DNA of 64,000 nt. Source: Escherichia coli. GTDB taxonomy: Bacteria; Pseudomonadota; Gammaproteobacteria; Enterobacterales; Enterobacteriaceae. The stretch lies in NCBI RefSeq assembly GCF_003334385.1, contig NZ_QOWN01000007.1. One strand, 5' to 3'. The position numbers were made by a program. Shown one piece after another: positions 39,001-42,000 of the stretch; position 1 is the stretch's first letter; each line of letters starts with the position of its first letter.

Positions 39001-42000
39001 TGCAACTCTGGTGCGATCTCTTCCAGCTCCGCACACTCCTGCGCACTGCGGGTGTCGTTCCATAAAATCGCCGGACGAATCGCCTCTCCTTTTTCATCCA
39101 ACAGGACGGCACCATGCATTTGACCAGAAAGGCCAATGGCTTTGATCGCCTGCCAGTGGTGACCGCATTTTTCCCGCAGGGTCGACATTAAATATTCCGT
39201 CGCTTCCCACCAGGCTTGCGGCGATTGTTCTGACCAGTGTGGATGGGGCCGCTGAATGGTCAGCGGCGCACTATGGGTGGCAACAATTTCATTGTTTTCA
39301 TCAATGACCAGCGCCTTAACTTCCGATGTGCCCAGATCGATACCCAGATACATAACCGCCTCCTGGTTAGTTAATTAACGCGTAGACGTCAGCGATTTTT
39401 TCGCGCAACAACGCGGCAAAATCTTCACGTTCGGTTAAATCGCCAAACAGCGCTTTATCACTGGCATAAACAGCGACGGGATCGGCAGACTGGAACATTG
39501 CATGGACAGCTGGTGCATCAAGGATGCCATCCTGATATTCATAGGGCAGTTTGCCGTGATGCCATTGCTCCATGAATACGTAAAACAGTGCAGGTAACAT
39601 GGCGGTGGCATTCGGGCGAACGCCTCGCTGGTAGCACTCTCGCAGTGTGGGGGCAATCATCGCCGGAATTTTCGAGAAACCATCCGCAGCGACGCGTTGG
39701 TTGGTGTCCTGAATATGTGGATTGGTAAAACGCTTGAGTACAACATCACGGTAGGTTGGCAAATCGATACCGTTATCGCCCAAGCAAGGAATGACATCTT
39801 CCGTCACGTAGCGGTCGGCAATCTGATAGATAAAATCGGTCATTGTGCTTTCGTGGATATATTTTTGACCGATTAACGTACCTGCCCAGGCGATGCAACT
39901 GTGTGAAGAGTTAAGAATGCGAATCTTCGCCTCTTCATAGGGGATTACCGACGCCACCAGTTCGACACCGACCTTCTCCAGTGCCGGACGGACATCACGG
40001 AAATTATCTTCCACGACCCACTGGATAAAGGTTTCGCCCATTACCGGCGCTTTATCGGCAATACCCGTTTGAGCCTTGATCCGTGCCGGAAGTTCTGCTG
40101 CCGGACGAGGCGTAATGCGGTCAACCATGGTATTCGGGCAAGTGGTATTTGTACTCAGCCAGTCGATGACATCCTGTTTGCCAGTTAGCTGGAGAAACTC
40201 AACCAGGCCATCATGGAAACGTTCACCATTATGGCGCACGTTATCGCAATTCAGCAGGGTTAGTGGTCCGGCGTTATTTGCCATACGTGCTTCGAGGATA
40301 CGGGTAATAACACCGTAAATTGTTTTGCATCCCCCTTTAAGATCTGCCGCTAAATCAGGATTGTTAACTTCCAGTTTGTGACTGGTATTCAGGTAGTACC
40401 CGCCTTCGGTGACGGTGAAAGCAATCACTTTTGTCTTCGGATCTGCCCCTTCAGCAATCAGCGGTTGTAAATCTGCCTGCCACGGTATCAACTTCTGAAT
40501 TGAGGTGATCTCTTCATATTCGCTTACCCCTTCCGGGCTGACGGTTTCCAGCACATAGCGACCTTTCTGTGCACTGAGTGCCTGTACGACATGTTCAGCA
40601 TCATTACGAATATTGCCCGCAGCAATGCTCCAGCGTTTATCGCCCATCACCTGCAAACGGTGTAGATACCACGCCTGATGTGCGCGATGAAAAGAACCTA
40701 ACCCGATGTGCAGCCATGTAAATTGTTCGTTCATTGTTTCGTTCTCCATTGACGTTATGGCTGAACTGTAATCGAACATTTGAGTTAATTAAGAGCGTTA
40801 GATCACAAAAGAACAATTGACCAAAAAAATTACAAATGACCAAATCAAAGCAATAAACTTGCCTCGCGGTAAAGCTATGGCCAAAATGACGCTAATCAGT
40901 TGCGGGATTTTCACGATTCCGCACGCCACTTTTGAGGTAGGGAAACGTGAACAAAGAAGATGACATCAGGCTCGATCAAAAAGTACGGGCGGCATGGATG
41001 TACTACATTGCCGGACTTAATCAGAGTGAAATCGCAAGTCAGTTAGGTACTTCACGGCCAGTGGTTCAACGCCTGATAGCAGCAGCGAAAGACGAAGGGA
41101 TTGTGTCGATTGGATTGCATCATCCGGTTGCCAACTGTCTCGATTATGCCCAACTGTTAAAGGAAAAGTACCAATTAACCGACTGCAATATTATGCCGGT
41201 TTACAGTATTGAAAGTACGCTCGACAGCGTGACATTTGGCTGTTATCAACTGATGGCGCGTTACTTACAGGGTGACAAACCGACCATCGTTGGTATTGGT
41301 TCTGGCTTAACGTTGAAGAAAACCATTAAACGTATCGATTTTGATAGTCAGAATACCCGCTGTGTGGCGCTGATTAGCGCCATGAATGAACACGGGCAAT
41401 GTAACTATTACGACGACGTACCGCTGCTTTTGGCGAGAAAAATTCAGGGAAAATATTACCAGTGGCCAGCTCCACGCTATGCTCAGTCCCGCGAAGAGTA
41501 CCAAATGTGGTCAACCAATCGATTGTTCCGCAACGTCTCTACCGTAGCGCGTGACTCTGATGTTATTTTCGTGGGTATTGGTGCTTTAGGTCGTCAAAGC
41601 CCTATTTTCAAAGATGGCTTTATTGATGAGCAGCAACTGGAAGAGTTAACAGCACGCGGAGGCGTTGGTGAAATCCTCGGACGCTTTATTGATGCTGAAG
41701 GCAATGTTGTGGAAAGCCAGATCAACCAGATGATCACCAGCCATGATATCCGCGAAAGCAACTGCCCACGTATCGCAGCTGCCTGTGGTGAGGATAAACG
41801 TCCGGCGATCCTCGCAGCATTAAAAGGTGGGTGGATCAACGGTCTGGTCACCGATGAACACACCGCACGCTGGTTGCTGACACGTTAATCTCAGCTGACA
41901 ACATTCAGGCTCGGAATGAGTTGTGGCGGTATCTCAATGCGACGCAGGGTGGTATCGCCAGAATCCACAATTTCAAACACTTTTTCGAGCATGGCGGGTA

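What the first reader, a model, noticed from the sequence alone, without database searches (positions are those of the whole stretch)
40817..40844. Direct repeat TGACCAAA-N11-TGACCAAA in the dalD/dalR divergent promoter: candidate DalR operator
The 167-bp region between dalD and dalR contains ATTGACCAAAAAAATTACAAATGACCAAATC, with the octamer TGACCAAA repeated at about two helical turns. SorC/DeoR-type regulators commonly bind spaced direct repeats.
Basis: inference. Interest (0 to 1): 0.3.

Follow-up and report, generated by a model that had tools for sequence, protein, structure and literature searches.

The report
Probable DalR operator, dalD–dalR spacer
The repeated octamer is real and is the right-hand half of two adjacent, conserved 16-bp boxes that are most likely where the D-arabitol repressor DalR binds: a useful but ordinary, so far unannotated operator of a known type.

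Summary
TGACCAAA occurs at 40818-40825 and 40837-40844, 19 bp start to start, between dalD (39367-40734, minus strand) and dalR (40947-41888). The spacer is 212 bp, not 167.

The exact octamer pair is weak on its own: about 10% of shuffles contain such a repeat. It sits inside a 19-nt tandem repeat (16 of 19 identical; 1 of 2000 shuffles).

Seventeen dal loci from Enterobacteriaceae and from Vibrionaceae/Psychromonas align without gaps across this region. What is conserved is not the octamer (exact pair in 2 of 17) but two 16-bp pseudo-palindromic boxes, WWGAnCAWWTGACCAA: S3 at 40809-24 and S4 at 40828-43. The octamer is their right half.

DalR is a SorC-family regulator of the DeoR/LsrR type and keeps both base-contacting arginines of B. 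subtilis DeoR. A matrix built only from dal boxes picks out the two half-operators of the experimentally defined DeoR operator (p about 0.003).

Two weaker in-phase boxes lie towards dalD. S1 sits in the inferred dalD promoter spacer. S2 overlaps a CRP-like site.

Best reading: S3+S4 is a DalR tetramer operator that represses dalDKT. No binding was tested. It is a new member of a known kind, of modest interest.

The parts
40818..40825 (+). It equals positions 10-16 of box S3 plus one base.
   Evidence: It is only moderately conserved, and the last two A are not conserved.
40837..40844 (+). It equals positions 10-16 of box S4 plus one base.
   Evidence: TGACCA is identical in all the enteric loci aligned, and the last two A are variable.
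40807..40844 (+). 19-nt tandem repeat, 2 units, 16 of 19 identical.
   Evidence: Reached by 1 of 2000 shuffles.
40809..40824 (+). Box S3, AAGAACAATTGACCAA. Proposed DalR dimer site and left half-operator.
   Evidence: It scores 21.4 bits on the pooled matrix. G at position 3 is present in 17 of 17 loci.
40828..40843 (+). Box S4, AATTACAAATGACCAA. Proposed DalR dimer site and right half-operator.
   Evidence: It scores 17.4 bits. It matches the right half-operator of B. subtilis DeoR at 13 of 17 positions in a 17-nt frame. In the 16-nt box frame I count 12 of 16 by eye.
40772..40787 (+). Box S1, TCGAACATTTGAGTTA. A weaker box in phase with the others (37 bp from S3), lying in the inferred dalD promoter spacer (-14 to -29).
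   Evidence: It is strong in Klebsiella (TTGATCATTTGACCAA), Photobacterium and Psychromonas. In this window it is degenerate: -7.5 bits on the leave-one-out matrix, and 9.9 on the pooled matrix that includes S1 sites.
40789..40810 (.). CRP-like site, TTAAGAGCGTTAGATCACAAAA (centre 40799.5). It overlaps a weak in-phase box, S2, at 40791-40806.
   Evidence: GATCACAAA is nearly invariant in 17 loci. The core has 3 mismatches to TGTGA-N6-TCACA and is not significant on its own. The assignment rests on conservation and on its position at -41.5 from the inferred start site, so it is an inference.
40765..40770 (-). Inferred dalD promoter -10 hexamer, TACAGT.
   Evidence: TAnnnT sits at the same offset from the anchor in 17 of 17 loci. 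The promoter scan tool did not call it, because the -35 is poor.
40859..40887 (+). Inferred dalR promoter, TTGCCT-N17-CAAAAT.
   Evidence: TTGCCn-N17-CAnAAT is present in 11 of 11 enteric loci that lack an insertion. It matches 8 of 12 consensus positions, below the scan threshold.
39367..40734 (-). dalD, D-arabinitol 4-dehydrogenase. First gene of the dalD, dalK (annotated xylB), dalT operon.
   Evidence: RefSeq annotation of an identical E. coli locus; translation.
40947..41888 (+). dalR, a SorC-family regulator of the DeoR/LsrR type.
   Evidence: (PF04198 Sugar-bind plus an HTH domain).

Best explanation
The two octamers are the right halves of two adjacent 16-bp pseudo-palindromic boxes, S3 (40809-24) and S4 (40828-43), with consensus WWGAnCAWWTGACCAA and centres 19 bp apart. 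Together they form a 35-bp operator for the divergently encoded SorC-family repressor DalR.

By analogy with B. subtilis DeoR and CggR, each box would take one dimer of DNA-binding domains, and the pair would take one DalR tetramer.

The operator lies directly upstream of a CRP-like site, at about -51 to -85 from the inferred dalD transcription start. A bound DalR would block CRP and the RNA polymerase alpha subunit from activating the dalD promoter. It might also nucleate binding to the weaker in-phase boxes S2 (over the CRP site) and S1 (in the promoter spacer), which would occlude the promoter directly. D-arabitol would release DalR.

S4 is about 50 bp upstream of the inferred dalR start, so autoregulation is possible.

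Shown here: the repeat, its conservation, its dyad symmetry, the phasing of the boxes, the family of the regulator, and the resemblance to the DeoR operator. Inferred: both promoters, the CRP site, DalR binding, the tetramer, and the mode of repression.
For: 1. The tandem repeat is non-random: 1 of 2000 shuffles reach it.
2. Conservation peaks on 40802-16 and 40828-42, while the dalR promoter spacer and leader are variable (mean information 1.6-1.7 against 0.8 bits).
3. Seventeen loci, whose DalR proteins are 54-100% identical to the window's (the Vibrionaceae set by identity to the 54% relative), keep the same box positions without a single indel from -36 to +45 of the anchor.
4. The 51 pooled boxes are significantly palindromic: 1 of 5000 column permutations.
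5. A matrix made from S3 and S4 finds only these two strong sites in the 64-kb window: 28.7 and 27.1 bits, with the next best at 15.3.
6. In a leave-one-out scan it places the best additional hit at the S1 or S2 offset in 15 of 17 loci.
7. DalR's closest solved relatives are LsrR, B. subtilis DeoR and SorC.
8. Its recognition helix is SRPVVQRL against SRPTVSRL in DeoR. It keeps the arginines that align with R34 and R39, which contact bases in the DeoR-DNA structure (PMC11229326).
9. The dal-box matrix, scanned over the experimentally defined 39-bp DeoR operator, ranks its right and left half-operators first and second among distinct positions. The best score was reached by 55 of 20000 shuffles.
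10. SorC-family repressors bind 39-45-bp operators made of two half-operators, as tetramers (PMC11229326).
11. In locus L013 a toxin-antitoxin insertion separates the boxes from dalR, and the boxes stay next to dalD.
Against: - No binding, footprint or start-site data exist for this locus in anything I could search.
- The box spacing is 19 bp, against 22 bp in DeoR, so the tetramer geometry may differ.
- S3 and S4 lie upstream of both inferred core promoters, which is not the classic position for a repressor.
- In this window S1 is degenerate (-7.5 bits on the leave-one-out matrix).
- The CRP site is not significant by sequence alone and could instead be a DalR box.
- The loci are phylogenetically related, so the counts over 17 loci are not independent.
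- The DeoR comparison was made after the resemblance had been seen.
- That DalR is a repressor induced by D-arabitol comes from my recollection of Klebsiella genetics (Charnetzky and Mortlock 1974; Heuel et al. 1998). I could not read those papers here.
Confidence: 0.68

Rival explanations
1. The conserved boxes are bound by a different protein, or are a promoter upstream (UP) element of dalR, and DalR binds elsewhere, for example only at S1 or S2. Candidate proteins include a second CRP dimer, Fis or IHF, and another sugar regulator.
For: The region is A+T-rich and lies just upstream of the inferred dalR -35. The neighbouring GATCACAAA block is more strictly conserved than any box and looks like a CRP half-site. 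S3 and S4 are outside both inferred core promoters.
Against: The conserved positions are specific G and C bases in a dyad pattern (G3, C6, G11, C14), not A-tracts. The pattern matches the operator of the closest structurally characterised relative of DalR. The motif is unique to this spacer within 64 kb. It occurs together with dalR in two bacterial orders.
Confidence: 0.17
2. The repeat is a chance feature of an A+T-rich spacer, with no sequence-specific function.
For: An exact 8-mer repeat of this kind appears in about 10% of shuffled spacers. TGACCAAA is also generally common in this window: 9 copies against 2.2 expected.
Against: The extended 19-nt tandem is reached by 1 of 2000 shuffles. 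The boxes are conserved, and fixed in position, across 17 loci while flanking spacer segments diverge.
Confidence: 0.03
3. The octamers are core promoter elements: TTGACC at 40817-22 serves as a -35 hexamer for rightward transcription of dalR.
For: TTGACC matches TTGACA at 5 of 6 positions (read directly from the sequence).
Against: No acceptable -10 follows at 16-18 bp, and the scan found no promoter. TTGACC is not conserved: orthologues have ATGCCC, TTGCTC or TTACCC. By contrast TTGCCn-N17-CAnAAT further downstream is conserved in 11 of 11 enteric loci.
Confidence: 0.04
4. DalR does bind S3 and S4, but these sites serve mainly to control dalR itself (autoregulation or activation). Repression of dalD depends only on the proximal boxes S1 and S2.
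For: S4 ends 16 bp upstream of the inferred dalR -35. A conserved GAGCAAA half-box sits between them in enteric loci. In Klebsiella, Photobacterium and Psychromonas, S1 scores about as high as S3 or higher.
Against: In locus L013 a toxin-antitoxin insertion separates S3 and S4 from the dalR promoter, yet they are retained next to dalD. In this window S1 is degenerate while S3 and S4 are the strongest boxes.
Confidence: 0.08

Closest known systems
[quoted passage not shown]
   Same: - The regulator has the same fold family and a near-identical recognition helix with both base-contacting arginines.
- The operator is two half-operators of about 16 bp in tandem.
- Half-site sequences are alike: TTGAACAAAATTTCAA and ATTTACATATGTTCAA in DeoR against AAGAACAATTGACCAA and AATTACAAATGACCAA here.
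- The dal-box matrix recovers both DeoR half-operators.
- The operator lies upstream of or overlapping the promoter, and the regulator gene is adjacent.
   Different: - Box spacing is 19 bp here against 22 bp in DeoR.
- The effector is presumed to be D-arabitol rather than deoxyribose-5-phosphate.
- Here there are up to four phased boxes and an embedded CRP-like site in a divergent control region.
- Binding is untested.
E. coli LsrR and the lsrR-lsrA intergenic operator
   Same: LsrR is the closest solved homologue of DalR (E = 3e-34). It also controls a divergent regulator/operon pair with CRP sites in the spacer. Its reported box includes AACAAT (PMC5137460), which also occurs in S3 (GAACAATTG).
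   Different: The ligand is different (phospho-AI-2). I did not compare the LsrR boxes in detail, because I could not read the primary footprinting paper (Xue et al. 2009).
B. subtilis CggR tandem operator (SorC/CggR subfamily)
   Same: A tetramer binds two direct-repeat half-operators, each with internal dyad symmetry. This is the best precedent for a 'direct repeat' that is really two palindromes (PMC11229326).
   Different: CggR has a winged-helix DNA-binding domain. Its operator is GC-rich (CGGGAC-N6-TGTC), 45 bp long, and lies downstream of the start site (+32 to +77).

Membership tests
SorC/DeoR-subfamily operator | The cognate regulator is a SorC-family protein with the short N-terminal HTH domain and is encoded next to its target. 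| tested here: met
   Pfam PF04198 plus an HTH domain. Best solved matches are LsrR, DeoR and SorC over the full length. The DNA-binding domain aligns with DeoR 7bhy. dalR is divergent from dalD.
SorC/DeoR-subfamily operator | Two half-operators in tandem, each with dyad symmetry suited to a dimer of DNA-binding domains. | tested here: met
   S3 and S4 are 16 bp each. The pooled box matrix is palindromic (1 of 5000 permutations). S4 in this window is a poor palindrome by itself (2 of 8 pairs).
SorC/DeoR-subfamily operator | Half-operator spacing like the characterised members, about 22 bp start to start. | tested here: not met
   The spacing is 19 bp in 16 of the 17 loci and 20 bp in V. albus. 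It is 22 bp in the DeoR operator (sequence; hit positions 2 and 24).
SorC/DeoR-subfamily operator | Half-site sequence related to that recognised by a DNA-binding domain with the same base-contacting residues. | tested here: met
   The dal-box matrix picks the DeoR right half-operator (11.5 bits) and left half-operator (6.7 bits); the best score was reached by 55 of 20000 shuffles. S4 against the DeoR right half-operator is 13 of 17, reached by 38 of 2000 shuffles. The comparison was made post hoc.
SorC/DeoR-subfamily operator | The regulator binds the DNA as a tetramer and is released by its effector. | not testable with these tools
   This needs gel-shift or footprinting assays, or mass photometry, with purified DalR with and without D-arabitol.
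SorC/DeoR-subfamily operator | The operator overlaps or abuts the regulated promoter. | tested here: inconclusive
   The promoters are only inferred. On that inference S3 and S4 lie at -51 to -85 of the dalD promoter, and S1 and S2 at -14 to -48.
   The exact pair occurs in 2 of 17 loci. The TGACCA pair occurs in 5 of 17.
Class II CRP-dependent promoter | A TGTGA-N6-TCACA site centred at -41.5. | tested here: inconclusive
   The right half, TAGATCACA, matches the consensus exactly, but the left half, AGAGC, matches at 2 of 5. Such 3-mismatch sites are not enriched in the window (182 found against 224 expected). The position is exactly -41.5 only relative to an inferred start site.

The most novel reading that the evidence does not exclude
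The whole 72 bp from the dalD -10 to box S4 (40772-40843) is a phased array of four DalR boxes at 18-19-bp intervals, with the CRP site embedded in box S2. Two DalR tetramers would then coat the region and compete base for base with CRP. The 19-bp phasing, 3 bp shorter than in DeoR and CggR, would imply a tetramer geometry on DNA different from the two solved SorC assemblies.
Probability: 0.3. Interest if true: 0.45.

Novelty: new member of a known kind. Interest (0 to 1): 0.3.

Why it matters
It gives a concrete, testable operator and a control-region map for DalR. I found no defined binding site for this SorC-family repressor in anything I could search.

The map comprises the -10 hexamers, the CRP-like site and four phased boxes.

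It extends the DeoR-type half-site (TTGAnCAw / wTGnyCAA) from Bacillus to Gammaproteobacteria. It also offers a natural 19-bp spacing variant for testing how SorC tetramers span two half-operators.

In practice it could help to build a D-arabitol biosensor. A recent attempt with a dalR gene gave no response (PMC11334909).

Tried and rejected
- **Sigma-70 promoter and terminator scan of 40650-41050:** nothing passed the threshold. The promoters were inferred from conservation instead.
- **Tandem Repeats Finder:** missed the 19-nt tandem and reported only a 12-nt repeat over the dalD start.
- **Rfam scan of 40600-41100 at E <= 1:** no RNA family matched, so there is no sign of a riboswitch or small RNA.
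- **CRP core search with 3 mismatches:** no enrichment, so the CRP call cannot rest on sequence alone.
- **The genome-contig scan:** returned only 5 loci. More orthologues came from protein searches followed by contig look-ups. One look-up failed (P0115).
- **First 17-nt matrix, built from enteric loci only:** gave weak and inconsistent secondary hits. Only the gap-free anchor alignment exposed the 16-bp box register.
- **An array of GAnCAA hexamers at 8-11-bp spacing:** I considered this and dropped it in favour of 16-bp dyad boxes once the Vibrionaceae loci showed palindromes.
- **An 'inverted third copy' (CATTTG at 40776-81):** I first read it this way. It is better described as box S1 in the same register.
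- **Inverted repeat 40718-31 / 40808-21:** it involves the dalD codons 2-6. Those codons differ in the other E. coli allele, so I treated it as coincidence.
- **Literature searches for a DalR operator:** searches found none. Heuel et al. 1998 is not held.

Full report
**1. What is there**

The window is E. coli chromosome. The dal/rbt pentitol island occurs in 330 of 5426 complete E. coli genomes. Of these, 303 are at least 99% identical to the window and 27 carry a second allele of about 83% identity.

RefSeq annotation of an identical locus places dalD at window 39367-40734 on the minus strand and the SorC-family 'sugar-binding transcriptional regulator' (dalR) at 40947-41888. The spacer is therefore 40735-40946, 212 bp. 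No feature is annotated in the spacer.

**2. The observation**

TGACCAAA lies at 40818-25 and 40837-44. An exact 8-mer repeat within 30 nt is not rare in this A+T-rich spacer: 209 of 2000 dinucleotide-preserving shuffles have one.

The repeat extends to a 19-nt tandem, however. The units are AAAAGAACAATTGACCAAA and AAAATTACAAATGACCAAA, 16 of 19 identical. Only 1 of 2000 shuffles reached that.

**3. Orthologues**

I collected dal loci in three ways.
- A genome scan gave Citrobacter koseri, Enterobacter and Leclercia.
- The second E. coli allele came.
- Protein searches followed by contig look-ups gave a Klebsiella-like contig, K. grimontii, Shimwellia and a metagenome contig. They also gave a second clade whose DalR is 54% identical to the window's in V. 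albus, whose relatives (55-58% identical to V. albus DalR) come from V. natriegens, Psychromonas, Photobacterium and Aliivibrio.

All of them keep the arrangement dalK, dalD, then divergent dalR.

Among the enteric loci, conservation is concentrated in these blocks:
- ATCACAAAAGA-CAA at 40802-16;
- AATTACAAATGACCA at 40828-42;
- CTTGCC;
- CAnAAT;
- ACTGTA.

The dalR promoter spacer and leader are variable, with mean information about 0.8 bits against 1.6-1.8 in the blocks. The last two A of each octamer are not conserved, and the TGACC of copy 1 varies between species.

Anchoring all 17 loci on GATCAC (G at window 40801) aligns them without a single gap from -36 to +45. That alignment exposes 16-bp boxes in a fixed register:
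- S1 at 40772-87;
- S2 at 40791-806;
- S3 at 40809-24;
- S4 at 40828-43.

The start-to-start spacings are 19, 18 and 19 bp.

Pooling the S1, S3 and S4 boxes (51 sites) gives WWGAnCAWWTGACCAA. C6, A7, T10 and G11 are nearly invariant. G3 pairs with C14. The overall dyad symmetry was equalled by only 1 of 5000 column permutations.

The exact octamer pair occurs in 2 of 17 loci. In Vibrionaceae the second box reads as an inverted copy, and in Psychromonas it is the perfect palindrome TTGAATTATTATTCAA. That is what one expects of dyad sites, not of true direct repeats.

A leave-one-out matrix built from S3 and S4 puts the best additional hit to the left of S3 exactly at the S1 or S2 offset in 15 of 17 loci. 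These loci are related, so the count is not a probability. In this window S1 is degenerate and S2 is weak. S3 and S4 are the only strong matches in the whole 64 kb: 28.7 and 27.1 bits, with the next at 15.3.

**4. The regulator and the family precedent**

DalR's closest solved relatives are E. coli LsrR, B. subtilis DeoR and K. pneumoniae SorC. This places it in the SorC/DeoR subfamily, which has the short HTH domain.

PMC11229326 shows that DeoR and CggR bind as tetramers (dimers of dimers) to 39-45-bp operators made of two half-operators. It also shows that DeoR R34 and R39 contact bases in TTGAACA. DalR's helix is SRPVVQRL against SRPTVSRL in DeoR, and both arginines are kept.

The dal-box matrix was built without any Bacillus sequence. 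Scanned over the 39-bp DeoR operator, it ranks position 24 (the right half-operator ATTTACATATGTTCAA, 11.5 bits) first and position 2 (the left half-operator TTGAACAAAATTTCAA, 6.7 bits) second among distinct positions. The best score was reached by 55 of 20000 shuffles.

I made this comparison after noticing the resemblance, so the p-value is indicative only. The clear difference is spacing: 19 bp here against 22 bp in DeoR.

**5. Promoter context (inferred)**

- **dalD -10:** a TAnnnT hexamer sits at the same offset in 17 of 17 loci. In the window it is TACAGT, the reverse complement of 40765-70. I take it as the dalD -10, which implies a start near 40758.
- **dalD -35:** the -35 region is poor (CTTAAT).
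- **CRP-like site:** TTAAGAGCGTTAGATCACAAAA (40789-810) has a consensus right half and a weak left half, and it is centred at -41.5, the geometry of a class II CRP promoter. By sequence alone it is not significant. It overlaps box S2 with a 1-bp offset, so it may be a CRP site, a DalR box, or both.
- **dalR promoter:** TTGCCn-N17-CAnAAT is present in 11 of 11 enteric loci (40859-87).

On this map S1 covers -14 to -29 of the dalD promoter, S2 and the CRP site cover -33 to -52, and S3 and S4 cover -51 to -85.

**6. Mechanism proposed**

A DalR tetramer sits on S3+S4. From there it either prevents CRP and the RNA polymerase alpha subunit from activating the dalD promoter, or it nucleates occupation of S2 and S1. 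D-arabitol releases it.

That DalR is a repressor induced by D-arabitol is from my recollection of Klebsiella genetics; I could not read those papers here.

In locus L013 a YoeB/YefM cassette is inserted between the boxes and the dalR promoter, and the boxes stay with dalD. This fits a primary role in dalD control.

**7. Rivals**

Chance is excluded by the conservation. A core-promoter role for TTGACC is unlikely: no -10 follows it, and it is not conserved. Binding by another protein, or an upstream promoter element, cannot be excluded without experiments. It fits poorly with a G/C-specific dyad pattern that matches the operator of DalR's characterised relative.

**8. Novelty**

I found no paper in the searchable library that defines a DalR operator. 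The primary Klebsiella paper is not held, so an earlier proposal cannot be ruled out.

The element is a new member of a known kind, a SorC/DeoR-type tandem operator. It is of modest interest: a sound regulatory annotation rather than a surprise.

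Noticed in passing
L013:2016-3000 (JGI metagenome 3300011532): A YoeB/YefM toxin-antitoxin pair is inserted inside the dalD-dalR spacer, between box S4 and the dalR promoter. 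A GAGCGAA / CGAACAAAA element flanks both sides of the insertion. The DalR boxes remain on the dalD side.
   Followed up: partly
window 36000-47900; L001 and L019: E. coli carries two alleles of the pentitol island.
- The window type (303 genomes) runs yegS, HAD hydrolase, dalT, dalK, dalD, dalR, rbtR, rbtD, rbtK, rbtT, fbaB, with no galactitol genes between rbtT and fbaB.
- The allele of about 83% identity (27 genomes, e.g. XJ34) lacks rbtT and is followed by gatR, gatD and gatC.

This recalls the 'genotypic exclusion' of the rtl-atl and gat genes cited in PMC6805351.
   Followed up: partly
window, 9 sites (2585, 24307, 30521, 33283, 40818, 40837, 46495, 53268, 54086): TGACCAAA is over-represented in the whole window: 9 copies against 2.2 expected, reached by 0 of 100 shuffles. 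The seven copies outside the spacer have no obvious common context. I did not check whether they lie in coding sequence. Unexplained.
   Followed up: partly
window 40722-40744: A 12-nt tandem repeat (ATTGTTTCGTTC, 2 copies) spans the dalD start codon and its ribosome-binding region. In addition, 40718-31, inside the dalD codons 2-6, is 86% complementary to the left half of box S3. This is probably coincidence, because those codons differ in the other E. coli allele.
   Followed up: partly
window 40846-40858 and the orthologous positions: A conserved GAGCAAA half-box (AAAGCAA in the window) lies 18 bp after S4 and directly upstream of the inferred dalR -35. In V. albus the same word recurs four times at 18-20-bp spacing. 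It may be a fifth, half-strength DalR site relevant to autoregulation.
   Followed up: partly
Protein search results: Many Klebsiella DalR orthologues are named 'cytochrome C biogenesis protein CcdA' in NCBI records, and others are named 'LsrR'. The E. coli C genome paper lists the gene as lsrR_1 (PMC6805351). These look like propagated mis-annotations.
   Followed up: no
window 41891-42922 (minus strand): The regulator gene convergent with dalR, at the rbtR position, is annotated as a LacI-family protein of 343 aa. The two adjacent pentitol operons therefore use repressors from unrelated families. I did not examine its own control region, 42923-43080.
   Followed up: no
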